Virus record (IMG/VR): IMGVR_UViG_3300045988_176357
Span: 128,053 to 192,052 of that record
DNA length: 64,000 nt
Source: a virus
Strand: one strand, 5' to 3'
Part shown: positions 20,595 through 44,261 of the stretch, one piece after another
How the letters are laid out: each line of letters opens with the position of its first letter
Numbering within the stretch: the stretch's first letter is position 1
Translations under genes and position numbers: made by a program
The notes under the pieces: generated by a model
Told to the model about the DNA's origin: nothing
What the model saw: only the letters and a program-made list of their open reading frames with translations
Database searches by the model: none

Positions 20595-20643
20595 CTAAAA
20601 CATTCAGCCGGGTACTTATGTGCCCGGCATAAGGACAAACGAA

Positions 20644-27424: not shown

Positions 27425-28761
27425 AAAAAGGACTCGGAAACCTGCTGGATGCACTTAGCAAGGCAGATGGCGGCGTCAGTATGTCCATCACAGAATTCAA
27501 AGAAGCCCAGTATGGTATTCCACTTAAGCATTACTGTCTGCAGTATCTTTTCGGCAGCACTGGGCTCAGGTACGGCGGTTTCTATCTGCTTGCAGGTAAG
27601 CCGAAGTCGTGCAAGTCGCCGTTTGCTTTCTTTCTCGCACATCTCAGCTGTGAGAATGATGGCATTGCATATGTGTACGAACTTGAAGGCAAAGCGTCAC
27701 CGACGTTGCTCAACAGCATGTTTGCAGACAAGCCCGAATGGCGAGAGGATGGCGGCCCTTTCAAGCTCATCAGAGGATTGACCTTGGATGGTGCAGAGAA
27801 GCACCTTACAAAGTCCGTGCTTAAATTATTCAAGCAGTATGAAGTCTACGACACTCCGCTGCTGATCGACTGGGACTCCATCTCAGGGGCTGCGATGTCA
27901 GATGTCGTGTCCAAGATCGAGAAGGAAGGTGTAGCCAGTAAAGGCTACTACGAGAAAGCACACATCATGAAGCATCTGACAGAGAGCTGGGTGGCACTTA
28001 CCAATAACCTGCCTGTCGTATTCGTCGGCGTCCTGCAGGAAAAAGAAAAGGCTGCAGAAGGATGGGCACCTGCAGGCGGACCGCAGAAGTCATATGGCGG
28101 CGGCGATTCGCAGCTGTTCAAGGCAGGTACATTGCTGTCATTCTCTCACAGCACGCTGCAGAACGGCGCAGGCAAACTTGTGCGTATCAAAACTGCACTG
28201 AATGGGTTCGCAGACAGCAGAGGCATTGAAGTCAAGTTTGTCTGGGACCAGTTCGGAGATCTTGAAACTGATTCACAGGGACATAAGTGGCTCTTCGCAG
28301 AGGCGACGGCAAAGTGTCTCGCACAGCCGAAGATCGTCGGCGAACTCAGAGACATCATTGATGTGAAGATCAACGACTCCGGCGACAGAGTGACATGCAA
28401 GACGTTCGGTCTTGACAAGGTTACAGCAACAGAGTTCGAGGAGGCCTTGTTCGCACCTGAGAACGCCAAGGTGCTGGAAGACCTCTACAGGTATCAGAAA
28501 ATCGAGAAGATCAAGCTGCCCTCAGAGTACGCAGCTTACGCCGAGAAAGCAGGTGACAAAGAGGCTGCGTACAAAGAGGCGCAGAAACAGGCACAGCTCG
28601 AAGAGCGTGAGGCCAAGGCGGCTGAAGCTGCAGCAAAGGAAGCAGCCAAGCAGGCAAAACGAGAGGCGAAAGCCAAGAAGTCAGCTGCGGCATCCAACCC
28701 GTTAGCTGCCTTGGCAGATATGGCTAAGAAAGCGGAGGCATCCGATGCAAAAGCTGAATAA
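27421..28761 (+). CDS. UvsX/RecA-family recombinase
   Basis: LLAGKPKSCKSPFAFF versus T4 UvsX ILAGPSKSFKSNFGL; Lys/Ala/Glu-rich C-terminal tail. Confidence 0.7.
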   Translation: MKKGLGNLLDALSKADGGVSMSITEFKEAQYGIPLKHYCLQYLFGSTGLRYGGFYLLAGKPKSCKSPFAFFLAHLSCENDGIAYVYELEGKASPTLLNSMFADKPEWREDGGPFKLIRGLTLDGAEKHLTKSVLKLFKQYEVYDTPLLIDWDSISGAAMSDVVSKIEKEGVASKGYYEKAHIMKHLTESWVALTNNLPVVFVGVLQEKEKAAEGWAPAGGPQKSYGGGDSQLFKAGTLLSFSHSTLQNGAGKLVRIKTALNGFADSRGIEVKFVWDQFGDLETDSQGHKWLFAEATAKCLAQPKIVGELRDIIDVKINDSGDRVTCKTFGLDKVTATEFEEALFAPENAKVLEDLYRYQKIEKIKLPSEYAAYAEKAGDKEAAYKEAQKQAQLEEREAKAAEAAAKEAAKQAKREAKAKKSAAASNPLAALADMAKKAEASDAKAE

Positions 28762-29086
28762 CAAGCGCGTGTTCTGTACACCTTACGACGATCAGCGTAT
28801 CGTGACAGCAAAAATCAAGAACGAAAAGCACTATGTACTGAAAGCATGTCCGTTCTGCGGCCGCAAGCCTGTAATCGAGACAGTAGAACCGATATTCCAT
28901 GCCGATAAAGTCCAGTACTTTGTATCATGTGCGCACCACGGCTGCGACTGCTACACAAGAACCTATCGCAGTCCGGGTGAGGCAATCGCGAAATGGAACA
29001 GACGCATCAGTCCACTTGACCGTATTGTAGCTTCTGACTTGAAACGCAGTCTTAAAGCAGCACAGAAAGAGGCGACAAATGAGTGA
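28745..29086 (+). CDS. Lar-like zinc-finger protein (possible restriction alleviation)
   Basis: CPFCG...C.HHGC motif. Confidence 0.35.
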   Translation: MQKLNNKRVFCTPYDDQRIVTAKIKNEKHYVLKACPFCGRKPVIETVEPIFHADKVQYFVSCAHHGCDCYTRTYRSPGEAIAKWNRRISPLDRIVASDLKRSLKAAQKEATNE

Positions 29087-29780
29087 CACACCAGAGTGGC
29101 CCACGACAGCACAGGCTGTCAAGGAAATGATGACCGAAGTCTGCGACAAGAATTTGTTCGACTCCGGCGGAGCTTACGGCTACGCTTATGAACGCAGAGC
29201 CAATTGTGACAAGGAACCTGAATTCAAGGTACATTACGAGCTCCTTGATACTGGGAAATTGTGTATCGAAGTCACAAAGAGCATGTACTGGCATCTTGTG
29301 AACACCTGCCAGTACAGACACGACCTCACTGTTATGCTGGACGCATATGCAGATCTCAAAGACGAGCGCTACGGAGCATGGCTTGGCGAGGATTTCTTCA
29401 CCTCGTTTGGTCTCAAGTCAGGATCCGACAATACATGCAACACTGAAACGATGCTAGACGGTACGTTTCTGTTCACACAGGCGTACACCAGCGATGAATC
29501 GACAGACCTGTTCGTGATCAGCACACACAATGGCTGCGATGTGCGCTCTGGTTACAGCAGCGCCAAAGTCTTTGAGAGTCCGGACGCTGAAGTTCTGTAT
29601 GGCTTGGACAGTGCAAGTCTTATGTGTCACGGTTGTGATAGACAGTTCTATCTGTCAGCCAGCGGCACTCTGACACTCGATCCTGACCAGTTCAGCCTCG
29701 AGCAGAACGACGACTTGCCGTACTTTGTTGACGGCAAGCTTTACTGTCCGAAGTGCCATGAGCCGCTGGAGGTGTACTGA
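29079..29780 (+). CDS. hypothetical protein
   Basis: ORF. Confidence 0.45.
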   Translation: MSDTPEWPTTAQAVKEMMTEVCDKNLFDSGGAYGYAYERRANCDKEPEFKVHYELLDTGKLCIEVTKSMYWHLVNTCQYRHDLTVMLDAYADLKDERYGAWLGEDFFTSFGLKSGSDNTCNTETMLDGTFLFTQAYTSDESTDLFVISTHNGCDVRSGYSSAKVFESPDAEVLYGLDSASLMCHGCDRQFYLSASGTLTLDPDQFSLEQNDDLPYFVDGKLYCPKCHEPLEVY

Positions 29781-30256
29781 TGCCGAATGCACAACTCATG
29801 GCTGCGCTGCATGCGAGTACTAAAGCGTTGCGAGAAATGGCACGTGACGACGCTACGTACGACTTCGTATACGCGCACAGGAACATGTTCGTCAGCAACA
29901 GAGAGTCCTTCAAGGCTGCTGTATCTGCATGCCAGGAGCGCTCAGGCAGAGAGCTGTTGGACAGATTGGATCTGCAGGAGATCTGCATCGAGAAAGTAAC
30001 CGAAGCGGAGCTGCTGCACAGCTGCTACTACTTTGTCGACAGTCCACTGTACAAGCGTTTCATTCAGCTCGTCAGCAAGCACGGCGGCATAGGTACGGCA
30101 ATCTTCGTCGTCAACAAGCGAGGCATCGTCGTTACCAATAAGTACAGTCTGGACGCCTATGTGCGGGTCAAGCATGTACTCGGCAGCACAGGTAAATTGC
30201 CAGACATCATGTGGGCGCCCATAGAAGACCTTAAAGGCTTCACGTTTTACAACTAA
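29780..30256 (+). CDS. hypothetical protein
   Basis: ORF. Confidence 0.45.
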   Translation: MPNAQLMAALHASTKALREMARDDATYDFVYAHRNMFVSNRESFKAAVSACQERSGRELLDRLDLQEICIEKVTEAELLHSCYYFVDSPLYKRFIQLVSKHGGIGTAIFVVNKRGIVVTNKYSLDAYVRVKHVLGSTGKLPDIMWAPIEDLKGFTFYN

Positions 30257-30265
30257 GGAGGTTGA

Positions 30266-31725
30266 ATGCTGGAAACAAAAGTCATGTTCAATGCTACAGA
30301 GATCACGATCAAAGTGTCTGTGTGGGCGCGGGGTGATCCGTTCCCTGCTATTGGACATGCTGTAGGTATAGACACAGAAACCGAACTGATTACAGACGCC
30401 GAGCTTACGCCTCCGTTGGTTGTACTCGGCGTTTTTAATCCTGCTGACATGACCTGCTACCAGATATCCTGGACCGACGCGCAGTACTTCATGCAGGAAC
30501 TGCTTAAGCGTGACTGCAAGCTGTACTTCGCCAATGCAGGATTTGATTACTTCGAGCTTGAAAGCGATGAACTTCGAGATGCGGTCAGCAATGACCGTCT
30601 CGTAGACTTGCTCATCAGGGCTCCGCTGAAAGAGATCGCTACGATAGGTTACATCAGAACGCACAGCCTGAAGGATGCCTGCCAGTGGCATCTCAATTAC
30701 GAGATGGACAAGCACGAGGATGAAGGCGACCAGGCAGCTCGTGTCACGTTCCGAAGGAACAAGGACATTACAGATGAGCAGCGCATTTACCTGACAATCG
30801 ACTGTGCGTCCACCTATTATGCATGCGAGGCGATCGGGCCTCAGGCGACAGAGTGCACGCATACACGTGGGCAGATCGTCCTGTATCATATCAGCAAGAA
30901 CGGCTTTCCGTATGATCCGTACATGTTTGATTACTGCGAGAAGCTGTTACAGCAGCATATGGACCAGTACCGTGCAGAGCTCATCACGTACGGGTATCCT
31001 GATCCATACAAGAAGGACATGCCGACAGATATCAAGCAGCTGCAGGACGGCTGGCCGATGTTCAGGGACGCCTGGTTCGCCGCTCATATCAAAGAGAAGT
31101 ACCAGTTCGAGGACTCGCTGCCAGGCAAGAGCACTGTAAAGCGCATATTGCTGTACGGCACTGCGTATATGCAGCACGGTACCGATAAAGGCACTCTGGC
31201 ACGAGTGTTCGCAGCATTGCTGCTGCAGGACAAGAACCTGTCCAAGAAGGAACAGGCTGCATATGACCAATTGGTGGAGGAGCACGACTTTCTGGATGCC
31301 TGCAACGGTGTTGGCAAGAAGGAGGTTTGGCCGACGCTGCTGGTTGCGTGGATGCGTGCCGAGCTGGATGGCAAGGACATTGCTGGCATCTGGCAGGCAG
31401 TGGACGATGCGGTGCAGGACCACCCGCAGTGGTTCTGTACTGAGGAGCCTGTCAAGCCCAAGGCGTTCATGCAGGACCATCTGCGGGAACTGCAGGAAAA
31501 GTACCCTGGACTGGAGTTCGACAAGACGCTCAAGTCAGGTGAACTGAAGTGCTCCAAGAAGGACGCGTGGAAGTTGGCGGATGCGGGAGTGAACGATCCG
31601 CTGCTGACCGCGTACGTAAACTTTGGCCATGTGCAAAAGTATAAGTCGTCGTTTACCAATAGGGAATACCTGAGGAGCGACGGCAGAGTGCGGTGCCGCT
31701 TTGGCATCGTGGAGAGCGGTCGGTT
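30266..31725 (+). CDS. family-A DNA polymerase, exon 1 (3'-5' exonuclease domain plus N-terminal polymerase domain)
   Basis: Exo I GIDTETE, Exo II FANAGFDYFEL; ORF then reads into intron 1. Confidence 0.75.
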
Positions 31726-32051
31726 TGGCCGCTTCACACCGCGAGGTGTGTCGAACAAGAAAGTGAATTGCTGGGACACCTTAACGGGTAACGCCGAAGG
31801 CAATCAGCAGCCGAGCCATGCGTTCGACAGAACGCCAGCGCATGGAAGGTTCATCGACTATCCCGTACGTAATGGGAGTACCCGAGTAGCCATGTGCGTG
31901 ATAACGCACGAAAGCAAGGGGAAGCACTCTGGCTCAGGAATGAGTCAATGATATAGTCAGTGCGCTTATGGAAACATAAGGAGTGGTCAGGAGTGACAAC
32001 CTGAAACCTGCTACTGGGCGGCAACCGGTAGTGAACAAGATCCTTGGTGTG
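31726..32051 (+). ncRNA. polA intron 1: transposase-less IStron-type group-I-like intron
   Basis: Hairpin cacacc-gcga-ggtgtg plus the conserved core; ends ...ccttggtgtg; junction restores ..SGRFT|ISSLRTSASKPNLQQYP (PolA TGRLSS..PNLQNIP region). Confidence 0.55.
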
Positions 32052-32183
32052 TACAATATCAAGCCTGCGTACATCGGCATCTAAGCCGAATCTCCAACAA
32101 TATCCGTCACACGATCCGGTGTTTGCCTTGAAAAACATGTACAAGCCACCGGATGGAACCATTTTTGTCAGCGTAGACTATAG
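32052..32183 (+). CDS. polA exon 2 (through motif A ..VSVDYS)
   Basis: PNLQQYP and VSVDYS motifs. Confidence 0.6.
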
Positions 32184-33227
32184 CTTCGAAGCGGAGCCTT
32201 CACACCGCGAGGTGTGTCGAACAAGAAAGTGAATTGCTGGGAGTGCATAATGCCTGCGAGGCTACAGCGTAACCGCAAGGTAAGCGCGACAGCTGCGAAA
32301 GCAGAAAGAACACGCAGGATGGCATAAGGTGACAGTAAGCCTAAGTGCTGTGACAATTGCTGATCAGCAGCCGATCAAGGGATCTCCTAAGGCGAAAGCT
32401 ATGGAGCCCGGAAAGGGTTCAGAGACTAAGCGCTCCTTCTCTGGAAACGGAGAAGATGATATAGTCCGATTGTATTTAAATATTATTGCTGTATAATTAG
32501 AATATATAAGGCATTAACCACACAGAATTAACATGGACACAAAACCCGTTGGTTTCATTTACAGAATATATTGTACGTTGTAGTACTGTAGCAAAAGCTA
32601 TATAGGGCAGACACGACACAGCATATAGAAAAGGTTCGCTCAGCACTGTTGTCCTGGAGCGAAGCGAAAGACTTACATAGACAGAGCTATCGCATATCTA
32701 GGTAAATAGCATTTTTGTATCGAGTAGCTTGCAGAAGCACAAACGCTTCAGTAGTTAAATAAGCTGTAGATCTAGTATATAGAGAAGTACGGTAGTTTGT
32801 TTCCGGGTGGATTTAATATATCTAAAGGAGGTACAGTACCGTAGTTTACTTACTCTGGTAAGCCTGTAGTGCATTACTAGACCGGTATTGTATATAGAAA
32901 CAGTCAGTAGGCTGCATAGGCTACAGGTTGTAATGCTTCAGATATTCGTAGTATAGCCAACAAACGTATAAAGTCTACAAAAGGGAATCACTTTTATTGG
33001 TAGTTTACAGCTTTATAGGCTTATTTGGACTTTTGGAATACTCCGGATAAGAATGGTCCGAAGCGTATTATCAATGTCAGTACTGGATAGGTGTTTTAGT
33101 CACAGATAGCTGTATGCAGAAAATACAACCTAACTAAGTCACAGGTATCCAGAATGTGCCTAGGCAAAACAGCTAGTCTGAAGTCGTGTCCTTATGTATT
33201 TGAGTTTTACCAGCAATAAGCAGTTAG
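32184..33227 (+). ncRNA. polA intron 2: second type of group-I-like core (32186-32468, sharing the 5' module) plus a GIY-YIG HEG
   Basis: Core has a close homolog at 34910-35194; ends with G at 33227; junction restores DYS|AELVALAES (compare DYSQIELRILAHLS). Confidence 0.55.
32533..33219 (+). CDS. GIY-YIG homing endonuclease with NUMOD1 DNA-binding module; 15 in-frame TAG codons, no TAA/TGA
   Basis: With TAG read as a sense codon: MDTKPVGFIYRIYCTL.YCSKSYIGQTRHSI.KRFAQH ... STG.VF.SQIAVCRKYNLTKSQVSRMCLGKTASLKSCPYVFEF; stops with TAA 9 nt before the 3' splice site. Confidence 0.7.
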
Positions 33228-33465
33228 CGCAGAGTTGGTCGCGCTGGCAGAATCGTGCATAACAAAGTACGGCGAGTCCGTATTAGGCACTATTATCAAC
33301 GCGGATGTATGTCCGCATTACTTCTTCGCCGGTGTCATGATGGGTCTCATAGACGCCGACGTCAGCTTTTGCAGGGATCCCCAGGAAGTGGATCGTGTCA
33401 AGAAGTTCCTTAAAGAGCACGTAAGCAAGGAAGAAAGACAGAGAGCAAAAGCAGTTAATTTCGGT
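33228..33465 (+). CDS. polA exon 3 (O-helix / motif B up to ..RQRAKAVNFG)
   Basis: Motif B RRxAKxxNFG. Confidence 0.65.
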
Positions 33466-34498
33466 TAAATAATGTAAAGGAATGTAAAATGTAGTATAGA
33501 TGTTTGGAGTGTGGGTGTCTGTTCTAGGCTAAGCAACCGGCTAAATACTGCTCGCAAGCACATAAACAAAGGAAACAGAACCACAAAAGATAGGTGTATA
33601 TCTGTTTAAATTGCGGTTGTAAATTTTAGAGAGCAAAGCGTTCTGATTATGTTTTTTGCGGGCATAAATGCCGGTGTGCATATAGATAGAGTCATCCTTA
33701 GTTCGACTAGAGATAGTTCGTAGTTAGTAGAATGCAAGCGGATAACACACTGAAGTTCAGTAATAGATAGGCAAAAGCTAAAGCTAATGACATATATTGT
33801 GGTAAAACCCGGTTACGGTGGTCATAGGAAGCTTTAGATGCTTAGCTGTAGAGACGTGGTATATCAGTAACAGATTTTGGTCATAGGTGCTACAATAAAA
33901 CTTTAGCCCAATCGCCCTACGCATAGGTAATTGCGTCTAAATAGAAAACTTTAGATAAGCGTAGACGTATATATGCAAAGAAGAAAGCACTCGGCCTTAT
34001 TGTTACTGAAAAGTCTACTAACCAGAAGGTAAGATAGGCTATAATTAAATAGAGATATGGAATATGCTAGTGCTGTGGTTACTGTCAAAATGTCGATGCT
34101 TTGCAGTTACATCATGCAGATATGGATAGAAGCCACAATAATAAAGCTAATCTAGTTCTCTTATGCGCTAATTGTCATCAGATACTGCATACACGTATAA
34201 AGCGCAATTGGCATATGTATACGTAGCCTAAAGTCACATGTATATTACAATAGTTGCAAAGTATGTAGGCCGAAGTAAAAGAGCGGAATAAAGCGGGAAC
34301 TGCCGACAGGCAAACCCGAACCGAAGGCACGCAGGAATGCGTGTCAGGGGCAACGCGTAGCAGTACGTCCAGCTCGGATATGAACTGCCAAGAGGCCGCT
34401 CCTCTGCAGCCTATGCTGCAAAAATGTACGCTGAACACCGGTGTATGGACAGAAAGACCGGGAGCTATGGGATAAAAAGCCCGTAGGATAACAAATTG
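33466..34498 (+). ncRNA. polA intron 3 carrying an HNH HEG
   Basis: 5' splice site after ggT, 3' splice site after ttG; junction restores NFG|LPGGMKGKRLYQHL (compare NFGLIYGMSAFGLARQL). Confidence 0.55.
33489..34475 (+). CDS. HNH homing endonuclease with N-terminal CxxC zinc-ribbon repeats; 20 in-frame TAG codons, no TAA/TGA
   Basis: With TAG as sense: ..YRCLECGCLF..YCS..YICLNCGCKF... CQCCGYCQNVDALQLHHADMDRSHNNKANLVLLCANCHQILH; ends with TAA ~25 nt before the 3' splice site. Confidence 0.65.
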
Positions 34499-34909
34499 CT
34501 GCCAGGTGGCATGAAAGGCAAACGCCTATATCAGCACCTGAGAGAATGCGGCATCAAGGCTACGTTGCAGGAAGCCTTTCAGCTCAGGGAAACCTGGCTG
34601 CGAACCTTTAAGGAAATGAACCTGCACTTCGCCAGAACGCCGCTAAGACAAGACCCAAGGGAAAGGTACGCCTGGATACCTGCAAGTGACGACGACACAA
34701 GTACAGAGGACGCTGACCCGAAGGCAGATAAGCGCAAGGGTCGTCAGCTGTATGAAGTCACAACAATTACAGGCTTCAGACGTAACCGTACCGTAATCAA
34801 CAGCTGCCTGAACACAGAGTTTCAGAACCCAGTTGCACATCTTGCAAAGGAGGCTCTATGGAACTTCGAGAGGGCAGGACTCGGTAATCGTCTGCTGAAT
34901 TTTGTCCAT
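34499..34909 (+). CDS. polA exon 4 (to ..LLNFVH of motif C)
   Basis: Ends with the H of the VHDE motif. Confidence 0.65.
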
Positions 34910-35194
34910 GGCATCGTGGACGTTAAAGAAAGTGAATTGCTGGGAGTGCATAATGCCCGACTGCCTGATACAGGAGCGAAAGCAGAAACAAGTGTCGGGA
35001 TGCCTCAAGCTGAAACAAGTACCCGTGAGGGGCGCTAAAAGGTGGTGCAATTGCTAATCAGCAGCCGATCAAGGGATCTCCTAAGGCGAAAGCTATGGAG
35101 CCCGGAAAGGGTTCAGAGACTATCCCGCAAGGGAGTAGGGCGAAAGTCCGAAGCACTCCTTCTCTGGAAACGGAGAAGATGATATAGTCCGAAG
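34910..35194 (+). ncRNA. polA intron 4: compact group-I-like intron (same core type as 32186-32468)
   Basis: 5' splice site after caT, terminal G at 35194; splicing restores motif C FVH|DEADYW. Confidence 0.65.
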
Positions 35195-35440
35195 GATGAA
35201 GCAGACTACTGGGCCTACCCAAAAGAGGTCAGGCAGCTAGCTCCGATAGTGGAGCGATTGTGGCTGGAGCCTGGTCGCCGTGTGTTCCCTCATGTCATGC
35301 TCAAGTGCGAGACATCACTGAGCCTGTACTGGGACAAAGGCGGCGTCGAATTTCCAGATGTCAAGTGGAACGATAACGGGGAGCCGATACTGGAACTCCC
35401 GCCGTTCGTTCAACAGGCGTATGCCGCAAAAAGTACATAA
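35195..35440 (+). CDS. polA exon 5 (C-terminus)
   Basis: In frame from DEADYW to the TAA stop. Confidence 0.65.
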   Translation, partial: DEADYWAYPKEVRQLAPIVERLWLEPGRRVFPHVMLKCETSLSLYWDKGGVEFPDVKWNDNGEPILELPPFVQQAYAAKST

Positions 35441-35447
35441 ACATGGT

Positions 35448-35482
35448 CCCCCTGTGAGGTAACTCTTGCAGGGGGCTTTTCT
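35448..35482 (+). terminator. rho-independent terminator after polA
   Basis: cccccTG-loop-CAggggg followed by cttttct. Confidence 0.55.
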
Positions 35483-35497
35483 ATTGAGGAAACGAGC

Positions 35498-35746
35498 ATG
35501 AAAACAATTACAAAATGTACGTTGCTTGCAGCAGCTGCAGCTTGTACCATGTTAACTGGCTGCGATAGCGAAGAGGATTTGCAGAGATATAAATGCGAGG
35601 AGATTACGCGTCTATGCGAAGACCTGAAGGTGATTGAGTACGACGGATGTGAGTACTTGCTTTTTGGTCCGTACTCCTATGCTGGACTTCTAACACATAA
35701 AGGTAACTGCAAGTACTGTGAACAGCGAAGGAACAAAACGAAATGA
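35498..35746 (+). CDS. small Cys-rich putative lipoprotein
   Basis: Signal peptide with lipobox LTGC. Confidence 0.45.
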   Translation: MKTITKCTLLAAAAACTMLTGCDSEEDLQRYKCEEITRLCEDLKVIEYDGCEYLLFGPYSYAGLLTHKGNCKYCEQRRNKTK

Positions 35747-36831
35747 GAACAAAAAGAGTACTGAAGAAAAATGCAATCAAGGCCTATAAAGCCTTTAACA
35801 GTGACATGACTTGCAAAGGCTTCCAATATGAAGTCGGCAAGACCTACAGGCATAATGCTGTCTTGAAACTGTGCGAGGCAGGCTTCCATGCTTGCGAAAG
35901 GCTGGCTGACTGTTTCAGTTTTTACCCGTTCAGGGAAGCTGAAACCAGAGTGGCCGAGGTGCTAGTCTGGGGTAAAGTCGAGTATGCAGATACAGGTGTA
36001 AAACTCTGCGCCTCAAATATCAAGATAGTCAGAGAACTTGCATGGAGCGAGGTGTTATCTCTGTGTAACACTGGCTACGATAACAGCGGCCACAGTAACA
36101 GCGGCAACCATAATAGCGGCAGCTGGAACAGTGGCAGCTTTAATAGCAGCAACTGGAACAGCGGCGACTGGAACAGTGGCGGCTTTAATAGCGGCAGCTG
36201 TAATAGCGGCAGCTGTAATAGCGGCAACTGGAACAGTGGCAGCCGTAACAGCGGCGACTATAATATAGGCAACTATAATATAGGCTACGGTAACAGCGGC
36301 AACCAGAACAGCGGCGACTATAATACAGGCGACTGTAACAGCGGCAACAATAACACCGGTGACTGGAATAGCGGCGACTATAACACCGGCAACTATAATA
36401 TAGGCAACTGGAATGCAGGTATATTCAATACAGGGGCTTGTGAATATGCTTTTGCGTTCAATCAGCTTGTCAAGAAACAAGACTTAGAATGTCTTCCAAG
36501 TATACCATTCCTACGTTTTAAGCTTGTCGAATGGATACCGGAAAAGCATATGTTGCCGGAAGAGAAAGAGCAGCACCCTAAGTATGCGACAGCCGGAGGT
36601 TATCTCAAGAAGTACGACTACAAGGAAGCCTTCAGAAAGTCCTTCGAGGAGGCAAAGCGCCTTCCGGATTGGCCCGAACAGCTTAAGAGGCTGAAGGCGC
36701 TGCCCAACTTCAACTTCAAAATCTTTGAAGAGATATCGGGTATCACTGCCGAGGAGTTAACAGGCAGCACTGTCGAGAAGTTGACTACGAAACCGAAACG
36801 CAAACGGGAAAAGAGCACTAAGGGTGCTTAA
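35743..36831 (+). CDS. NxGxx repeat protein, paralog 3
   Basis: Same family as 20644. Confidence 0.6.
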   Translation: MRTKRVLKKNAIKAYKAFNSDMTCKGFQYEVGKTYRHNAVLKLCEAGFHACERLADCFSFYPFREAETRVAEVLVWGKVEYADTGVKLCASNIKIVRELAWSEVLSLCNTGYDNSGHSNSGNHNSGSWNSGSFNSSNWNSGDWNSGGFNSGSCNSGSCNSGNWNSGSRNSGDYNIGNYNIGYGNSGNQNSGDYNTGDCNSGNNNTGDWNSGDYNTGNYNIGNWNAGIFNTGACEYAFAFNQLVKKQDLECLPSIPFLRFKLVEWIPEKHMLPEEKEQHPKYATAGGYLKKYDYKEAFRKSFEEAKRLPDWPEQLKRLKALPNFNFKIFEEISGITAEELTGSTVEKLTTKPKRKREKSTKGA

Positions 36832-36848
36832 CTTAGAAGGATATTCAT

Positions 36849-37733
36849 ATGTATGTAAAACGTAAAGACGCAATCATAGCGTTCAAAGTGTTTTCTGATG
36901 CGGAACTGAATATGCATCATATTGTTCCAGGTACAATTCTTGACACTAAGTCCATGACCTCAGATGATAAAAGAATGTTCACTGTGTTCAAACATGCTGA
37001 GGATGCAATATCGTTGGCAGTGCATATGTGTATGCAGACTGTTTGCAGAGTGCGCGTATCAGGTAACGTACGAGAGCTGGAAGGTGGAAGGCTGTTAGTG
37101 CAGCATATGCAAGTAGACTGCGATGGACTGATACCGCTCAGAAAGCTGCTTGTTACAGTGAATAAAGGTTCTGCCAACTACGGTATATACAATGAAGGAA
37201 CTCGGAATGATGGTAACCACAATGTTGGCTGCAATAATGTCGGTAACTGGAACTTCGGCTCATACAATCTGGGCTCCTTTAATTTTGGCACTGGTAATAT
37301 CGGCAATCATAATAGTGGCGACTATAACTATGGTGACTTAAACGAAGCCGGATATTGCAATGTGGCTAAACGCACACGCTCGTGCGTCTTTACCACAGTA
37401 AATAACACCGGATATTTGAGCTTTAATAAGCCTTATACAGTTAATCTCTATACTTGTCAAATTCCTGATTTCTGCAGAGTAAAAGTCATTGAATGGATTC
37501 CTGTTTCCAGCCTGGCTACAGTTAAGGATACAAAAGAGAAATGCATGTATGCATGCTGCGGAGGTCGATTGAAAATCACCAGTTATCGGGAAGCCTTCAG
37601 GATCTCTTTTGAGGTAGCCAGACGCAAACCGGATTGGCCCAAGCAGCGGCAAATGCTGCTGGATCTGCCCAACTTCGATGCCGAGGTATTCGAGGAGATA
37701 TCAGGTATCACACCAAATGAACTTGGATTGTAA
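36849..37733 (+). CDS. NxGxx repeat protein with a divergent N-terminal domain
   Basis: NxGxx repeats plus the conserved C-terminal domain. Confidence 0.5.
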   Translation: MYVKRKDAIIAFKVFSDAELNMHHIVPGTILDTKSMTSDDKRMFTVFKHAEDAISLAVHMCMQTVCRVRVSGNVRELEGGRLLVQHMQVDCDGLIPLRKLLVTVNKGSANYGIYNEGTRNDGNHNVGCNNVGNWNFGSYNLGSFNFGTGNIGNHNSGDYNYGDLNEAGYCNVAKRTRSCVFTTVNNTGYLSFNKPYTVNLYTCQIPDFCRVKVIEWIPVSSLATVKDTKEKCMYACCGGRLKITSYREAFRISFEVARRKPDWPKQRQMLLDLPNFDAEVFEEISGITPNELGL

Positions 37734-37749
37734 CAGAAAGGAGAACGAA

Positions 37750-38112
37750 ATGAAAGCAGCAGATCTTGACACAAAAGACGTCACAGTAATACGTACAGAA
37801 AAGCGGTGCGTGCTGAATGAGAAGGTATTCGACCTTGACAACTGCCCTGACTGGGCGGAATGGGCGGCTGTGGATGAGGATGGTACGGCGTCTTGGTATG
37901 GAGCTAAGCCGGAGACCGTTGGAAGCGTTTGGATTAACGATGGTAGTAGCGGTTTAATCGGGGATGAGGATAGGATTGTAGCAATCATTTTCGATGCTGC
38001 CGACTGGAAGCGCAGCCTTATCGAGCGACCCAAGAAGGTGCTTGAGGTTACCATGTCGGATATTGAGAAGCAGTTTGGTTGTAAAGTGAAAATTGTAAAG
38101 GAGGCAGAATGA
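37750..38112 (+). CDS. 'CPDW' family small protein
   Basis: DNCPDWAEWAAVDEDG. Confidence 0.5.
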   Translation: MKAADLDTKDVTVIRTEKRCVLNEKVFDLDNCPDWAEWAAVDEDGTASWYGAKPETVGSVWINDGSSGLIGDEDRIVAIIFDAADWKRSLIERPKKVLEVTMSDIEKQFGCKVKIVKEAE

Positions 38113-38315
38113 AGCATCAGGAAACTATTATGTGGTGTCTCACAGGACATACTTGCAGTATATCGTACAATGCAGGGAAAGACAGGTACGATTGGGATAT
38201 CAGGAAAGGCGAAGAGTTGCAGGCAAAGGGATCAGCGGTGACTCTGTCGGAAGCGCGCAGTACAGCCATGTCCGCATATCAGATTGTCCGTGACGGCGCA
38301 GCATTGTCGAGGTGA
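38109..38315 (+). CDS. hypothetical small protein
   Basis: ORF. Confidence 0.3.
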   Translation: MKHQETIMWCLTGHTCSISYNAGKDRYDWDIRKGEELQAKGSAVTLSEARSTAMSAYQIVRDGAALSR

Positions 38316-38318
38316 CTT

Positions 38319-38648
38319 ATGATTGCAAAATTTAAGTATCCCGATATGTATGTTGGTTACGGCGTATGGCGCATTGTCGGTAATGCTGTGCGTAAAGATA
38401 AAATCACATTTGCGAACTTTCTATATGGTCCTGACGGAATCGAAATTACAACACTGTACTTCGACAAAGAGTGTACTGATTTTGAGCGTCCTGAAGATCT
38501 CTATATGACCAAAGCGGAAGCTGTCAATGTTTTGCGTAAACGCACCGAACGTGCATATGAGATAAGCAAAAAAGAGCTGTCAGAAGCAGAGCAGGATATG
38601 AAATTTGTTTCCAGCTACTGCAGCAAAAAGTATCCGAAAGATGCGTAA
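38319..38648 (+). CDS. hypothetical protein
   Basis: ORF. Confidence 0.35.
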   Translation: MIAKFKYPDMYVGYGVWRIVGNAVRKDKITFANFLYGPDGIEITTLYFDKECTDFERPEDLYMTKAEAVNVLRKRTERAYEISKKELSEAEQDMKFVSSYCSKKYPKDA

Positions 38649-38842
38649 GTGCAACTGCCGTGTGTGTAAGAGATCTCGGAAGCTCGAAGCTGTGCTGAGC
38701 AGGTACAACATGAAGCCAAAGGATGTAAATTTCCTGCACGCCATACTGACCAGCCTGATGACAGCAGAACTGGACAGAGACTGGGCACTGGTCGAGCTGA
38801 AGGAGGTGGCGTAGAAAATGACACAAGAAAAAGGAAAGCAAA

Positions 38843-39721
38843 ATGAGAGTACTGAAAAGTAGACCGATGACAGGATTCAAGGCAGTACAGTCCGATATGG
38901 CTGTCGACAATCCAAGAAGAATGGACGTCGGAACTGTGTACTCAACGAAATCTATGGCGTTGGCAGATCACAGTATGTTCTGTTTCGATGAGGAACTTGA
39001 AGACGCTGTGCGTGCATGCCTGTACAGTACGGCATTTAAGGTGTACAGATGCAAAGTCTGGGGCACAGTGCTGGATGTTGAAGGTCGCAAAATCGCACAG
39101 CACATACAGCTGGAATGCGAGTTGTCTATGCGCAAGCTTCTTAAATTGTGCAACAAGGGCGCAAGCAATTTAGGTCTCCATAACAGCGGCAGCTTCAATT
39201 TCGGAGACTGTAATGATGGCAACCAGAATTACGGGGACCACAATTTCGGCAGTAACAATGTAGGAAGCTACAACGATGGAAGCGGCAACTGCGGCAGTCA
39301 TAATTCCGGTAACTACAATTTAGGCAGCTACAATGCGGGCGGTGGATGGAATGCTGCCTGTCACACAGAGAGTTGCTTCTTTACAACAAAGAGTCATGTT
39401 GCGTTCAGGTTCTTCAATAAGCCGTACAGGGATGCCAGCATTACTGTACACACGCCTGATTTTCTTAACATCAGACCTGCTGTGTGGATTCCAGGTAAGT
39501 ATATGACTGACAAACTCAAAAGGCTTATGCCAAGAGGCGCGGATGTAGGCGGCTGCACTGTGTACTTTGACTACAAGACAGCCTTCATGAAGTCCTTCGC
39601 GGACGCCAGACGCAAACCTGACTGGCCCAAGCAACGCCAGATGCTGCTGGATCTGCCAAATTTCGACGCAAAGATATTCGAGGAGATATCAGGCATCAAG
39701 GAGGAGGAACTTGGATTGTAA
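38843..39721 (+). CDS. NxGxx repeat protein with a divergent N-terminal domain
   Basis: Repeats plus the conserved C-terminus. Confidence 0.5.
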   Translation: MRVLKSRPMTGFKAVQSDMAVDNPRRMDVGTVYSTKSMALADHSMFCFDEELEDAVRACLYSTAFKVYRCKVWGTVLDVEGRKIAQHIQLECELSMRKLLKLCNKGASNLGLHNSGSFNFGDCNDGNQNYGDHNFGSNNVGSYNDGSGNCGSHNSGNYNLGSYNAGGGWNAACHTESCFFTTKSHVAFRFFNKPYRDASITVHTPDFLNIRPAVWIPGKYMTDKLKRLMPRGADVGGCTVYFDYKTAFMKSFADARRKPDWPKQRQMLLDLPNFDAKIFEEISGIKEEELGL

Positions 39722-39737
39722 CAGAAAGGAGAACAAA

Positions 39738-40082
39738 ATGAAAGCAGCAGATCTCGACACAAAAGAAGTAACAGTAACAGTAACACTGTATATCTTGAAC
39801 GAAAAGGTCTTCGAACTGGACGGGTGCCCGGACTGGGCTCAATGGGCTGCTGTAGATAAGGATGGCAGTGCATACTGGTACGAGGATGAGCCGGAAACAG
39901 ACTGCGTCTACTGGACATCTGCGTATGAATGTAGCCGCTCCAAGTGTATTGTCGACATATCCTTTGATGCTACCAATTGGCAGCACAGCCTTATCAAGCG
40001 ACCTGAGAAGGTACTTGAGGTTACCACAGCGGACATTGAGAAGAAGTTTGGTTGCAAAGTGAAAATTGTAAAGGAGAAGTGA
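39738..40082 (+). CDS. 'CPDW' family small protein
   Basis: DGCPDWAQWAAVDKDG. Confidence 0.5.
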   Translation: MKAADLDTKEVTVTVTLYILNEKVFELDGCPDWAQWAAVDKDGSAYWYEDEPETDCVYWTSAYECSRSKCIVDISFDATNWQHSLIKRPEKVLEVTTADIEKKFGCKVKIVKEK

Positions 40083-40083
40083 A

Positions 40084-40815
40084 ATGACAGAAAGTAAATC
40101 AGAATTGCATTTCGTACGTATCAGAGAGAAAGACTCCAAAGAGCCGTTCTGTGATCCGTATGCGGACATCAAGTTTGTTGTTACGTCTTTCTTTAAGGAG
40201 CTGCCTCAGTTGTATGGAATCAAACTGCAGCCTGCCGAGGACAAGATAGACTACTTGAAGGCATGTCTTAAAGTGTTTCTCACCAGGTTGGAAGAGGATC
40301 CGCAGCCGGTCAAGGCACAGCTGGAAGCCTTTATTGCAGCAATGCAGAAGGCGTTTACTCCTGCCGAGATTCTGTTCTTCGGAGAGGAGTTCCTGTCCTA
40401 TGTGTTCTGCACCTTTGTGCTCCATTACAGACGCGACGCAAAGGTGGATAAACCGACCACTATGCGGCTCGCAAGCCTGCTGCTCACGCTGTCGGGATCC
40501 GTACCTGCTGATGTGTGGGCACGCATGATGAACGGTACACAGGAAGAGCTTAAAGCCAAATTGGAGTGTGCGGCCTCACATCTGGAAGAGGTGCGTGCAG
40601 AGTGTGTAGAAGACGCCTCGAAGACCATTCCTGACATCAAGGATCTGGCAGCTCAGGCAATGGGCGCTACAGGAAGCCAGAAATGGGAAGATGTTGCGGC
40701 AGCATGCGACAAGTATGTACAGGAAGCTGCAGAAGATGACGACAAGGTTATTGCAGCTGCACTCGCGTATCCTGACTATCCTACGCCGTACTTTGAGGTC
40801 ACAAAAGATGCTTGA
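40084..40815 (+). CDS. hypothetical protein
   Basis: ORF. Confidence 0.45.
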   Translation: MTESKSELHFVRIREKDSKEPFCDPYADIKFVVTSFFKELPQLYGIKLQPAEDKIDYLKACLKVFLTRLEEDPQPVKAQLEAFIAAMQKAFTPAEILFFGEEFLSYVFCTFVLHYRRDAKVDKPTTMRLASLLLTLSGSVPADVWARMMNGTQEELKAKLECAASHLEEVRAECVEDASKTIPDIKDLAAQAMGATGSQKWEDVAAACDKYVQEAAEDDDKVIAAALAYPDYPTPYFEVTKDA

Positions 40816-41431
40816 GATGTTGTTGCAGAAACTGAAGATCGCGCGCGAAAGCAGTTCGCGTGTTGTCTTCTGCTATAAGTATGTCTGGTCCCGAATCGAC
40901 GACTATGTGTCACTGACCAATCTGAGACTGGAAGCAATACAGGTCCGCGACGGCAAGGTCTTCCATACACAGGCCGCTCCAGTGCTTGATGTGAACCATG
41001 GTAAGCCCAGAGTCGCATTCGCAGATTCCGGTATCGTGCAGGTCACCTCAGGACCCCGATCGAACATTGTCTTGAGAGAACGTCTGCTGCACGCCAACGA
41101 GACAGCAGCTCCGGTTCCCTTTTGTGGAACCAGGGAAATTACAGAAAGCAGCGATGAGAAGGATCTTCAGGTAGTCTATGACTTCCTGACATCCGCAGCC
41201 TTTCCTGGCGTGGATATGCGCATGCCGCAGTTGTTCCGGATCACGAAGAACCCTGAAAGGCTGCGCCTGAACATCACACCTGACTTGCTGCAGGCTCTTG
41301 ATCTGGATCCCGGAACACCCAGTAAGGAGATACAGGATGCGTTCCTGAACAAACTGCCTTCCATTTCAGCGCAGACATCCGAAGGATACGTGTTGCCGTT
41401 CAACGTGTGCCGCATGTGTTTCACATGCTGA
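40803..41431 (+). CDS. hypothetical protein
   Basis: ORF. Confidence 0.4.
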
Positions 41432-41442
41432 CCAGCACACAA

Positions 41443-44260: not shown

Positions 44261-44261
44261 T

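What the first reader, a model, noticed from the sequence alone, without database searches (positions are those of the whole stretch)
30266..35440. DNA polymerase A gene fragmented into five exons by four introns of three kinds
Exon junctions can be reconstructed from conserved PolA motifs:

- TGRLSS/PNLQNIP region: ..SGR(FT)|ISSLRTSASKPNLQQYP
- Motif A: VSVDYS|AELVALAES
- Motif B: RQRAKAVNFG|LPGGMKGKRL
- Motif C: FVH|DEADYW

Intron 1 is an IStron-derived ribozyme without tnpB. Introns 2 and 4 share a different ~280-nt core, but their first ~40 nt (hairpin + aagaaagtgaattgct) are the IStron 5' module. Intron 2 additionally carries the GIY-YIG HEG. Intron 3 carries the HNH HEG. Intron 4 obeys the 5'-U / 3'-G rule exactly (caT|...|aaG).
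Basis: partly seen in the sequence, partly recalled or inferred. Interest (0 to 1): 0.75.

Follow-up and report, generated by a model that had tools for sequence, protein, structure and literature searches.

The report
Phage DNA polymerase gene with four introns
An uncultivated phage's DNA polymerase gene is cut at four conserved polymerase motifs, including the three catalytic ones, by self-splicing group I introns; that is a known kind of arrangement, but the two endonuclease genes inside the introns use the stop codon TAG as a sense codon that fits glutamate, not the glutamine reported for phages so far.

Summary
Window 30266-35440 (+) encodes one family A DNA polymerase of 822 aa in five exons. 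Uninterrupted homologues (65% and 62% identical) fix all four junctions. Every intron follows a U that can pair with a G in P1, and every intron ends in G.

- **Introns 1, 2 and 4** are group I ribozymes of the IStron/IA2-like family (Rfam E 3.5e-8 to 8e-4, below gathering).
- **Intron 3** is a different group I class that Rfam misses. It is abundant in phages, and covariation supports its fold (93.8% paired across 94 sequences). Its HNH gene sits in the P1 loop.
- **Intron 1** has no tnpB, right end or guide-RNA remnant, so "IStron-derived" is not shown.
- **A ~95% identical phage (L008)** has a gene-free intron 3, an extra intron and a 9-nt micro-exon. Sequence around intron 2 is 99-100% identical, which fits recent homing.

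The unexpected part is the coding. The GIY-YIG and HNH genes contain 15 and 20 in-frame TAGs, with no TAA or TGA. These TAGs align with glutamate, including the catalytic Glu, not glutamine.

The parts
30266..31720 (+). polA exon 1 (485 codons, ends ...GAG AGC GGU = ESG): 3'-5' exonuclease-like N-terminal part and the start of the fingers
   Evidence: Aligns to the uninterrupted homologues P0001 and P0002. Standard ORF calling reads through into intron 1 to give a false 561-aa product, the same as P0003.
31721..32067 (+). Intron 1, 347 nt, ORF-less group I ribozyme of the IStron/IA2-like type with P7.1, P7.2 and an extended P9. It splits the TGR / PNLQ motif (SG|R).
   Evidence: Rfam Intron_gpI 40.9 bits, E 3.5e-8, at 31711-31981. 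P1 is CGGU|C paired with GGCCG, with U31720.G; the last base is G32067. 88% identical over positions 33-328 to 41470-41759 and 44390-44677, which precede tnpB.
32068..32186 (+). polA exon 2 (119 nt): RTSASKPNLQQYP...VSVDYS + TT
   Evidence: Alignment A1. A Pfam DNA_pol_A fragment hit.
32187..33227 (+). Intron 2, 1041 nt. Group I ribozyme core at about 32187-32490, then the GIY-YIG gene, then the 8-nt tail GCAGTTAG. It splits motif A (DYSF, TT|C).
   Evidence: Rfam Intron_gpI 37 bits, E 5e-7, at 32177-32485. P1 is GCUU|C paired with GGAGC, with U32186.G; the last base is G33227. An ORF-less version of the same intron type lies at L008 4922-5216.
32533..33219 (+). GIY-YIG homing endonuclease gene, 228 codons, with 15 in-frame TAG, no in-frame TGA and a single terminal TAA; GC about 0.39
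   Evidence: Pfam GIY-YIG scores 24.6 bits with TAG=Q and 34.1 with TAG=E. PHROG 314 scores 68.2 (E) against 51.6 (Q). TAG columns fit Glu at +25.5 bits against Gln at +3.9.
33228..33465 (+). polA exon 3 (238 nt): C + AELVALAES...RQRAKAVNFG
   Evidence: Alignment A1.
33466..34498 (+). Intron 3, 1033 nt, a group I intron of a second class. The 5' strand of P1 is exon UUUCGGU (33459-33465). The P1 loop of about 800 nt holds the HNH gene. The internal guide GCCGAAG lies at 34269-34275 and the ribozyme core at 34268-34498. It splits motif B (NFG|LPG).
   Evidence: The gene-free allele in L008 reads T|TCACAGGCCGAAG. The family alignment A2 (94 sequences) supports P3-P9.1 plus the P7 pseudoknot: 93.8% paired against 32-41% for slid controls. 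The Rfam group I model finds nothing here or in the gene-free L008 copy.
33489..34475 (+). HNH homing endonuclease gene, 328 codons if TAG is sense (20 in-frame TAG). The HNH motif ends at about 34223. The frame then continues through the ribozyme core to TAA 34473-34475.
   Evidence: PHROG HNH families reach E 1e-13; Pfam HNH gives 17 bits, below its cut-off. The same in-frame extension into the ribozyme occurs in L001, P0190 and P0191.
34499..34909 (+). polA exon 4 (411 nt): LPGGMKGKRL...LLNFVH
   Evidence: Alignment A1.
34910..35194 (+). Intron 4, 285 nt, ORF-less group I ribozyme related to intron 2 (82%). It has no P2 and almost no P9. It splits motif C (VH|DE).
   Evidence: Rfam Intron_gpI 26.3 bits, E 8e-4, at 34884-35212. 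P1 is GUCCAU paired with GUGGAC, with U34909.G; the last base is G35194. Intron similarity matrix.
35195..35440 (+). polA exon 5 (246 nt including the TAA stop): DEADYWAYP...AAKST*
   Evidence: Alignment A1.

Best explanation
The region is a single gene for a family A DNA polymerase of an uncultivated phage. It lies in the phage's replication module, next to SbcCD, helicases, a UvsX-like recombinase and NrdD. Four group I introns interrupt it, one at each of four conserved polymerase motifs: TGR/PNLQ, motif A, motif B and motif C.

**Splicing (inferred).** After transcription, each intron folds and pairs the last exon bases with an internal guide sequence, forming P1 with a U.G wobble at the cut site. 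It binds guanosine in P7, cuts after the U, and joins the exons after its terminal G. Four such splices give an mRNA for an intact 822-aa polymerase. No RNA data were available, so splicing rests on the sequence features and the exact restoration of the protein.

**Intron families (shown).** Introns 1, 2 and 4 belong to one mosaic ribozyme family. At least six further copies lie in the 64-kb window, five of them carrying TnpB (IStrons). Intron 3 belongs to a separate class that is very common in phages.

**Mobility (inferred).** Introns 2 and 3 each carry a homing endonuclease gene, GIY-YIG near the 3' end of intron 2 and HNH inside the P1 loop of intron 3. These enzymes presumably cut intron-less polA alleles during co-infection and copy the intron in by repair. 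That mechanism would explain why conserved motifs are hit. It would also explain why a 95%-identical relative is 99-100% identical around intron 2, and why it differs in presence or absence of the HNH gene and of one extra intron.

**Coding (inferred).** Both endonuclease genes are written with TAG as a frequent sense codon, while the polymerase and its neighbours avoid TAG. The endonucleases can therefore be made only when TAG is being decoded, presumably late in infection. The alignments say the TAGs stand for glutamate.
For: **Junctions and protein**
- Homologue alignment A1 and the Pfam and PDB alignments cross all four junctions.

**Ribozymes**
- Rfam group I hits for introns 1, 2 and 4: E 3.5e-8, 5e-7 and 8e-4 in a 4.2-kb search.
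- The U.G pair in P1 and the terminal G were read directly for all four introns.
- Intron 3 class: 52 pairs in 9 helices, 93.8% of cells paired. 38 pairs change on both sides, and 0 of 500 shuffles reach the observed values. Slid controls give 32-41% paired.
- Its P7 is 100% paired, with a bulge next to an invariant G-C pair.

**Polymorphism and mobility**
- L008 has a gene-free intron 3 and an extra intron that lies exactly between GCAGTT and AATTTCGGT.
- L001, L002 and L003 carry other introns at or within three codons of the motif B site.
- Identity to L008 by segment: exon 1 94.4%, exon 2 99.2%, intron 2 99.4-99.9%, exon 3 97.8%, exon 5 91.1%.

**Endonuclease genes**
- Pfam and PHROG assignments.

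**TAG usage**
- 15 and 20 in-frame TAG in the two endonuclease genes, none in polA.
- TAG ends only 3 of 66 ORFs, and two of those three are internal to TnpB genes.

**TAG as glutamate**
- In three GIY-YIG genes at most 52% identical to each other, TAG columns score E +25.5, +26.7 and +11.5 bits. Q scores +3.9, -1.0 and below -1.3. Controls recover the true Q, E, K, D, N, R and S.
- TAG sits at the invariant catalytic Glu (142-143 of 144-146 homologues) in the window gene. It also does so in P0050.
- GAR codons are nearly absent, 4 and 3 (the latter within the 247-codon HNH-domain part), while CAR codons are normal, 9 and 10.
- In the HNH gene, distant homologues have E at 6 of 20 TAG positions and Q at 0-1.

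**Precedent for the timing idea**
- A TGA-recoded group I intron endonuclease in an early gene of Agate phages (10.1101/2021.08.26.457843).
Against: - There is no transcript or splicing evidence.
- The three Rfam hits are below the curated gathering score of 50 bits, and intron 3 is not recognised by Rfam at all.
- Intron 4 has only about 5 nt between P7 and the 3' splice site. Intron 2 must find a 3' splice site about 740 nt beyond its core. Either may need help to splice.
- No tRNA with anticodon CUA was found in the window or in about 60 related loci, so the decoding agent is unknown.
- The "late expression" timing is an analogy, not a result.
- In a third TAG-bearing gene (minus strand, 43577-44347), the residues facing TAG in orthologues are mixed: about 9 E and 6 Q.
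- The HNH profile scores do not separate E from Q: PHROG 1271 gives 51.4 against 51.7.
Confidence: 0.85

Rival explanations
1. TAG in the endonuclease genes is read as glutamine (ordinary phage code 15), as the source pipelines assumed. The fit to glutamate would then reflect Glu-to-Gln tolerance or inactive enzymes.
For: Glutamine is the amino acid assigned to TAG in the phage papers read here. The collection's predicted proteins P0038 and P0188 carry Q at the TAG positions. The HNH profile scores are equal for Q and E. In the minus-strand gene, about 6 TAG partners are Q.
Against: The log-odds favour E by 17-27 bits in three independent GIY-YIG genes, and controls recover true Q codons as Q. 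The catalytic Glu is a TAG in two lineages. With TAG=Q the proteins would be 10-11% Gln and 1-2% Glu. Pfam and PHROG scores rise by 9.5 and 16.6 bits with E.
Confidence: 0.2
2. The polymerase gene is a decaying pseudogene, or is expressed as separate fragments. The intervening sequences are insertions that are not removed.
For: Gene callers report only fragments: P0003 and P0005-P0012 end at intron sites. No splicing data exist.
Against: All five pieces stay in frame with no internal stops, and they restore every catalytic motif exactly. Exons 2 and 3 (119 and 238 nt) do not begin with a start codon. The inserts have conserved ribozyme cores, a U.G pair at each 5' site and a terminal G. Relatives with other intron sets keep the same exons.
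Confidence: 0.03
3. The inserts are introns, but one or more, especially intron 4 or the gene-bearing introns 2 and 3, are not autonomous ribozymes. They would need a protein (a maturase-like endonuclease or a host factor) to splice, or they splice poorly and so limit polymerase output.
For: Intron 4 lacks P2 and P9 and scores only 26.3 bits. Intron 3 must close P1 across about 800 nt. Intron 2 must reach a 3' site about 740 nt away. In IStrons, the 3' guide RNA and TnpB repress splicing (PMC10690162).
Against: The cores are conserved at 99% between window and L008. Compact gene-free versions of the intron 2 and intron 3 types exist. Group I introns with ORFs in loops are known to self-splice; this last point is general knowledge and was not tested here.
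Confidence: 0.12

Closest known systems
Group I introns with homing endonucleases in phage DNA polymerase genes (Bacillus phages SPO1/SP82 with the HNH enzymes I-HmuI/II; T7-like phages). Recalled from memory, not tested here.
   Same: [quoted passage not shown]
   Different: Here there are four introns in one polA (five in the relative L008), one at each of four conserved polymerase motifs (TGR/PNLQ, A, B, C). They come from two ribozyme classes, and the endonuclease genes use TAG as a sense codon.
Staphylococcus phage Twort: many group I introns, including one gene with three introns (Landthaler and Shub 1999, as cited in PMC10690162)
   Same: An intron-dense phage genome, several IA2-type introns in one gene, and short exons.
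   Different: This window holds at least 10 group I elements in 64 kb, five of them with TnpB. The relative L008 has a 9-nt micro-exon.
IStrons (CdISt1, BcISt1, CboIStron): a group I intron fused to an IS200/605 or IS607 element (PMC4227781, PMC10690162)
   Same: Introns 1, 2 and 4 share the IStron-type IA2-like ribozyme. True TnpB-bearing IStrons of the same ribozyme lie in the same window. That literature already notes that this ribozyme clade swaps between TnpA/TnpB and homing endonucleases.
   Different: The polA introns have no tnpA or tnpB, no transposon right end and no guide RNA. Intron 2 carries a GIY-YIG gene at the place where IStrons carry the IS.
Recoded intron endonuclease in Agate phages (Borges et al., preprint 10.1101/2021.08.26.457843)
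   Same: A group I intron endonuclease lies inside an early, standard-code gene and is itself rich in a reassigned stop codon. That paper proposed this delays endonuclease production until late in infection.
   Different: There the codon is TGA read as Trp. Here it is TAG, and it fits Glu rather than the Gln assumed for TAG-recoded phages.
Genetic code 15 phages (TAG read as Gln: crAss-like, Lak, phAss-1; PMC9523058, PMC8346664, PMC10607447)
   Same: TAG is used as a sense codon in a subset of genes of a phage whose replication genes are in standard code, and TAG is rare as a stop.
   Different: The amino acid inferred here is glutamate. No suppressor tRNA was found in the sequence available.

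Membership tests
Group I intron (introns 1, 2, 4) | Conserved catalytic core (P3-P8, J3/4, J6/7, J8/7, P7) recognised by a covariance model | tested here: inconclusive
   RF00028 gives full-length matches at 40.9, 37 and 26.3 bits with E 3.5e-8, 5e-7 and 8e-4. These are significant but below the curated gathering score of 50.
Group I intron (all four) | 5' splice site after a U that pairs with G in P1, and a terminal G at the 3' end | tested here: met
   Read from the sequence at the junctions fixed by homologues: U31720/G32067, U32186/G33227, U33465/G34498, U34909/G35194. The P1 pairings are listed under parts.
Group I intron (all four) | Removal restores an uninterrupted conserved reading frame | tested here: met
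   The 822-aa product aligns to uninterrupted homologues and to PolA profiles across every junction.
Group I intron (intron 3 class) | Group I helix order with the P3/P7 pseudoknot and a guanosine-binding P7 (a bulge next to a G-C pair), supported by covariation | tested here: met
   In A2 (94 sequences), 93.8% of cells are paired against 32-41% for slid controls. P3 is 99.5% and P7 100% paired. The closing P7 pair covaries (AU 58, GC 36) and sits beside an invariant G-C. RF00028 itself gives no match.
Group I intron (all four) | Guanosine-dependent self-splicing | not testable with these tools
   Needs in vitro transcription and splicing, or RNA from infected cells.
IStron (claimed origin of intron 1) | Group I ribozyme of the IStron type at the 5' end | tested here: met
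   88% identity over 296 nt to the ribozymes that precede tnpB at 41838 and 44756.
IStron (claimed origin of intron 1) | An IS200/605 or IS607 module (tnpA and/or tnpB, right end, guide RNA) between the ribozyme and the 3' splice site | tested here: not met
   Intron 1 has only 19 nt after the point where similarity to the IStrons ends. It has no ORF and no match to the IStron 3' ends ...GAGATCATGACAG.
Family A DNA polymerase | Motifs A (DYS), B (RxxAKxxNFG) and C (HDE), with a profile match above threshold | tested here: met
   Pfam PF00476 gives 70.6 bits against a cut-off of 34.3. PDB 8jrb_A and Klenow/Taq also match.
GIY-YIG homing endonuclease | GIY...YIG motifs, conserved Arg and catalytic Glu, and a profile match | tested here: met
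   PF01541 scores 24.6 bits (TAG=Q) or 34.1 (TAG=E) against a cut-off of 22.6. PHROG 314 reaches E 1e-18. The catalytic Glu position is a TAG codon.
HNH homing endonuclease | HNH motif and a profile match | tested here: inconclusive
   Pfam PF01844 gives 17 bits, below its 21.4 cut-off. Fourteen or more PHROG HNH families match, the best at E 1.7e-13. The motif LHHADMDRSHNNKANLVLLCANCHQILH is visible in the translation.
Genetic code 15 (TAG = Gln) | TAG codons align with glutamine in homologues | tested here: not met
   Glu is preferred over Gln by 17-27 bits in three GIY-YIG genes, and controls behave correctly. GAR codons are depleted while CAR codons are normal.

The most novel reading that the evidence does not exclude
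A lineage of phage homing endonuclease genes, and so presumably the phages that carry them, reads TAG as glutamate. I did not find this assignment in the phage recoding papers I searched; the papers read assign TAG to Gln, and one preprint states it saw only TAG-to-Gln and TGA-to-Trp in phages whose code differs from the host's. Current pipelines silently translate these genes with Gln. One possible route is a tRNA(CUA) charged by a host glutamyl-tRNA synthetase, for example the non-discriminating enzyme of hosts that make Gln-tRNA by amidation, which then escapes amidation. The dense use of TAG (about 80% of Glu positions) in intron-borne endonucleases inside standard-code early genes would then be a switch. 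It would keep the nucleases silent until the phage turns on TAG decoding.
Probability: 0.65. Interest if true: 0.85.

Novelty: new variant of a known kind. Interest (0 to 1): 0.6.

Why it matters
**Annotation.** This polymerase is reported in public protein sets only as fragments. Yet the Rfam group I model does not see it, so such split genes are missed systematically.

**Intron biology.** One gene shows three things side by side. Related ribozymes carry nothing, a homing endonuclease or, elsewhere in the same genome, TnpB. A close relative shows gain or loss of an endonuclease gene inside a P1 loop. That relative also has a 9-nt exon squeezed between two introns.

**Genetic code.** If TAG really means glutamate here, the set of natural phage codes is wider than thought. 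Proteins translated with code 15 would then carry wrong residues, including at a catalytic site. The idea that recoding times gene expression would also gain a clean test case, because the recoded genes sit inside an unrecoded early gene.

Tried and rejected
- **Rfam at gathering threshold:** no hit anywhere in the window. The E-value mode was needed.
- **Intron 3 as a group II intron.** I considered this because of a hairpin near its 3' end that looks like domain V. I rejected it: there is no GUGYG start or AY end, no reverse transcriptase, and the covariation fits a group I topology.
- **Inteins:** rejected. The inserts are out of frame and full of stops.
- **INPHARED phage search with exon 1 protein:** no match. 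Blastn with the intron 3 core gave only weak Staphylococcus phage hits. The family consensus found 68 phage records, mostly unannotated.
- **Minus-strand ORF 43577-44440.** I first dismissed it as antisense noise, then suspected a shadow of a + strand gene (TAG = CTA). Codon-position mismatches of 100/74/136 show that the minus frame is the coding one. It has no family match.
- **The single TAG in the two TnpB genes:** it falls at a variable position (F/S/I in paralogues), so it says nothing about its meaning.
- **Suppressor tRNA hunt:** nothing with anticodon CUA in the window or in about 60 related loci.
- **Word-index protein searches with the two endonucleases:** these returned mostly near-identical recoded copies translated with Q. 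The exhaustive HMMER search was needed for the test.
- **Literature searches for TAG-to-Glu in phages:** no report found. The Lak paper mentions some TAG aligned with E but still assigns Q.

Full report
**What is in the sequence**

Between 30266 and 35440 the + strand carries five open pieces that bear family A polymerase motifs, separated by four stretches full of stops. A search with a provisional joined protein found 37 relatives. These include uninterrupted full-length proteins: P0001 (832 aa, 65% identical), P0002 (823 aa, 62%), and P0004, P0013, P0014 and P0016.

Their alignment (A1) fixes the exon borders:
- ...GIVESG|RTSASKPNLQQYP
- VSVDYSF|AELVALAES, with the Phe codon split TT|C
- RQRAKAVNFG|LPGGMKGKRL
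- LLNFVH|DEADYW

The exons are 30266-31720, 32068-32186, 33228-33465, 34499-34909 and 35195-35440. Joined, they give 822 codons plus TAA, with no in-frame TAG or TGA.

The product scores 70.6 bits on Pfam DNA_pol_A (cut-off 34.3). It aligns to the solved PolA 8jrb_A across every junction: TGRMSSLKPNVQNVP, DFSQIEL, ERQLAKAINFGL and LVNLVHDE. At junctions 1, 2 and 4, one or two bases repeat at both ends, so the sequence alone allows two or three registers. The U/G rule selects the borders given here, and the protein is the same in every register.

**Introns 1, 2 and 4**

At its curated thresholds Rfam reports nothing in the window. In E-value mode over 4.2 kb, the group I model gives full-length matches:

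| Rfam match | Intron | Bits | E-value |
|---|---|---|---|
| 31711-31981 | 1 | 40.9 | 3.5e-8 |
| 32177-32485 | 2 | 37 | 5e-7 |
| 34884-35212 | 4 | 26.3 | 8e-4 |

The usual J3/4-P4 (GAAUUGCUGG), J6/7-P7 (GUUCA.AGACUA) and J8/7-P7' (GAUAUAGUC) elements are present.

At each junction the last exon base is a U that can pair with a G of an internal guide:
- Intron 1: CGGU|C with GGCCG
- Intron 2: GCUU|C with GGAGC
- Intron 4: GUCCAU with GUGGAC

In introns 1 and 2 the guide sits at the same distance from the conserved CUUCACACC. Each intron ends in G.

The three are mosaic relatives:
- Intron 1 is 88% identical over positions 33-328 to the ribozymes at 41470-41759 and 44390-44677. Those are followed by TnpB genes (Pfam OrfB_IS605). 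Its P1-P2 and 3' tail, however, match the ORF-less intron in nrdD at 63703.
- Introns 2 and 4 are 82% alike. They share a long P5 extension and have almost no P9.
- Intron 2 shares 45 identical nt (P2 through P4) with intron 1.
- Intron 4 lacks P2.

The published IStron ribozymes are IA2, Twort-like, and are known to associate with either TnpA/TnpB or homing endonucleases (PMC10690162, PMC4227781). Intron 1 has no tnpB, no right-end sequence and no guide-RNA remnant. It is therefore a member of the ribozyme family, not an IStron, and which form came first is open.

**Intron 3**

No Rfam model touches 33466-34498. Relatives explain it.

- L001 has a homologous HNH-bearing insert at the same NFG| site.
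- L003 has a 195-nt IStron-type intron three codons upstream (AKGV|NFG).
- L002 has both kinds, flanking a masked stretch.
- L008, from a 95-kb IMG/VR contig, is about 95% identical to window 28535-41092. It carries the intron 3 core without any gene...AATTTCGGT|TCACAGGCCGAAGUAAAAGAGCGG....

So the exon end UUUCGGU pairs with GCCGAAG (window 34269-34275), again with a U.G pair at the cut site. In the window, the roughly 800-nt HNH region is an insertion in the P1 loop.

A pattern drawn from the core (GGAATNAAGCGGG...GTCAGGGGCA) hit at least 120 viral and at least 120 metagenome contigs. I aligned 94 diverse members (A2) and wrote a group I structure by hand: P3, P4, P5, P6, a P7 pseudoknot, P7.1, P8, P9 and P9.1.

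The counts on that structure:
- 93.8% of 4803 cells form standard pairs, against 32-41% when the partners are slid by 1-3 columns.
- 38 of 52 pairs change on both sides.
- No shuffle out of 500 reaches the observed values.
- P3 is 99.5% paired and P7 is 100% paired.
- P7 has a covarying closing pair (A-U 58, G-C 36), a bulged base, then an invariant G-C. This is the usual layout of the guanosine site.

The hairpin between P7 and P3' resembles the P7.1 of IA introns. RF00028 fails even on the compact L008 copy. The family consensus finds 68 annotated phage records, from Bacillus, Staphylococcus, Clostridium, Clostridioides, Listeria and Yersinia phiR1-37, mostly with no feature annotated there.

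**Signs of mobility**

L008 differs from the window in three ways:
- It lacks the HNH gene in intron 3.
- It has one more intron of the intron 2 type (L008 4922-5216), inserted exactly between GCAGTT and AATTTCGGT.
- This leaves a 9-nt exon (Asn-Phe-Gly) between two introns.

Identity between the two phages, by segment:

| Segment | Identity |
|---|---|
| Upstream genes | 92.2% |
| Exon 1 | 94.4% |
| Exon 2 | 99.2% |
| Intron 2 ribozyme | 99.4% |
| GIY-YIG gene | 99.9% (one synonymous change in 687 nt) |
| Exon 3 | 97.8% |
| Intron 3 core | 98.7% |
| Exon 4 | 95.9% |
| Intron 4 | 99.2% |
| Exon 5 | 91.1% |

This is the pattern expected from recent homing with co-conversion of flanking exon sequence. 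Many database relatives of the polymerase stop at intron 1's site or at the motif B site. Those positions are therefore hit repeatedly.

**The endonuclease genes and the TAG codon**

With only TAA and TGA as stops, two + strand frames in the window stand out for dense in-frame TAG:
- 32518-33219: 15 TAG, GC 0.39
- 33459-34475: 20 TAG, GC 0.41

From their ATG codons they encode a GIY-YIG protein (32533-33219) and an HNH protein (33489-34475).

Other genes with in-frame TAG are two TnpB genes, with one TAG each (2885, 52712), and a conserved minus-strand gene at 43577-44347. Of 66 + strand ORFs, 32 end in TGA, 31 in TAA and 3 in TAG, and two of those three are the internal TnpB TAGs. The window is a replication module: SbcC-like, helicases, primase-helicase, UvsX-like and NrdD.

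This is the layout described for recoded phages. Borges et al. already described a recoded (TGA) intron endonuclease in an early gene and proposed delayed expression.

What was not expected is the identity of the amino acid.

*Codon counts*

| Gene (part counted) | TAG | GAR (Glu) | CAR (Gln) |
|---|---|---|---|
| GIY-YIG (228 codons) | 15 | 4 | 9 |
| HNH domain part (33486-34226, 247 codons) | 18 | 3 | 10 |

*Profile scores for the GIY-YIG protein with each substitution at TAG*

| Profile | E | Q | K | D |
|---|---|---|---|---|
| Pfam GIY-YIG (bits) | 34.1 | 24.6 | 25.2 | 23.5 |
| PHROG 314 (bits) | 68.2 | 51.6 | 52.7 | 55.7 |

*Alignment test*

I ran an exhaustive HMMER search and aligned the X-masked protein to the 149 best representatives.
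- At the 15 TAG columns the homologues carry E in 35% of cells and Q in 6%. Background is 6.8% and 3.1%.
- This matches the profile at the protein's own GAR codons (E 36%).
- It differs from the profile at its own CAR codons (Q 20.5%, E 14.5%).
- Residue 79 is a TAG, and homologues have E there in 143 of 146 cases. That is the catalytic glutamate position.

A summed log-odds score gives E +25.5 bits against Q +3.9, after removing two relatives that are themselves recoded. The same score recovers Q, E, K, D, N, R and S correctly for the protein's ordinary codons.

Those two relatives, P0050/L254 and P0039/L255, are at most 52% identical to the window gene and have 19 TAG each. They give E +26.7 and +11.5, with Q at -1.0 and below -1.3. 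P0050 also has TAG at the catalytic position.

For the HNH gene the profile scores do not discriminate. But the distant homologues P0190 and P0191 have E at 6 of the 20 TAG positions each, and Q at 1 and 0.

The source pipelines translated these genes with TAG=Gln. The literature I could search reports TAG to Gln for phages. Borges et al. state that they observed only TAG-to-Gln and TGA-to-Trp in phages whose code differs from that of the host.

I therefore rate TAG=Glu as the more likely reading, at about two in three overall. It rests on computation from a few gene families. No tRNA(CUA) was found, and the minus-strand gene gives mixed E and Q partners.

**Other details**

If TAG is sense, the HNH frame continues through the ribozyme core (...KAEVKERNKAGTADRQTRTEG...) to TAA 34473. 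The same in-frame overlap occurs in L001, P0190 and P0191, so it is a conserved feature and not an accident of this copy.

**Verdict**

Junction 1, the "IStron-derived" claim and part of the "5' module" claim need correction, and the TAG coding of the two endonuclease genes was missed.

As an intron-laden phage polymerase gene this is a rich but recognisable example of a known kind. The probable TAG=Glu coding of its endonucleases is the part that would surprise a specialist.

Noticed in passing
window 32533-33219 and 33489-34475; also L254 76-768 and L255 225-1124: In-frame TAG codons in intron-borne GIY-YIG and HNH endonuclease genes align with glutamate, including the catalytic Glu, rather than glutamine. 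GAR codons are almost absent from these genes.
   Followed up: yes
window about 2116-3800, 10683-12400, 41430-43014, 44350-45932, 51947-53650, and 63703-64000: There are five IStrons in the window: an IStron-type group I ribozyme followed by a TnpB gene at 2606-3739, 11173-12288, 41838-42923, 44756-45841 and 52433-53599. One further ORF-less intron interrupts nrdD at the window end. With the four polA introns this makes at least 10 group I elements in 64 kb, all on the + strand.
   Followed up: partly
window 2885-2887 and 52712-52714: Two near-identical TnpB genes each contain one in-frame TAG (..AYQRL#RGLS..) at a position that is F, S or I in the other TnpB paralogues. This is either a tolerated sense TAG or a shared nonsense mutation.
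   Followed up: partly
window 43577-44347, minus strand: The only minus-strand gene candidate seen in this stretch has 11 in-frame TAG. It is conserved in L001 and L003, with codon-position mismatches of 100/74/136 that fit real coding. It has no Pfam or PHROG match. In the relatives it lies just left of a reverse-transcriptase (RVT_1) gene.
   Followed up: partly
whole window: TAG is almost never a stop codon. Of 66 + strand ORFs, 32 end in TGA, 31 in TAA and 3 in TAG, and two of those three TAGs are internal to TnpB genes.
   Followed up: yes
L008 4922-5462: A ~95% identical phage has five introns in polA. An extra intron of the intron 2 type lies after ...GCAGTT, then a 9-nt micro-exon AATTTCGGT (Asn-Phe-Gly), then a gene-free intron 3 whose P1 loop is 4-6 nt.
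   Followed up: yes
window 34268-34498; alignment A2: The intron 3 ribozyme class is very common in phage and metagenome contigs: at least 120 in each collection, with both scans capped. It also occurs in Bacillus, Staphylococcus, Clostridium, Listeria and Yersinia phage records. The Rfam group I model does not detect it, and it is mostly unannotated.
   Followed up: yes
window 34227-34475: The HNH reading frame continues in frame through P1', P3-P6 and beyond of its own ribozyme. The same overlap is kept in distant homologues (P0190, P0191, L001).
   Followed up: partly
window 20620-21891, 35743-36831, 36849-37733, 59452-60483: A family of paralogous proteins has long Asn/Ser/Gly-rich tandem repeats (NSGN...). 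Their antisense strands give spurious weak isrG hits in Rfam.
   Followed up: no
L001 7816-8843, L002 7875-8475, L003 7837-8041: The motif B region of this polymerase family is an intron hot spot. Different relatives carry an intron 3-type intron, an IStron-type intron three codons upstream, or both.
   Followed up: partly
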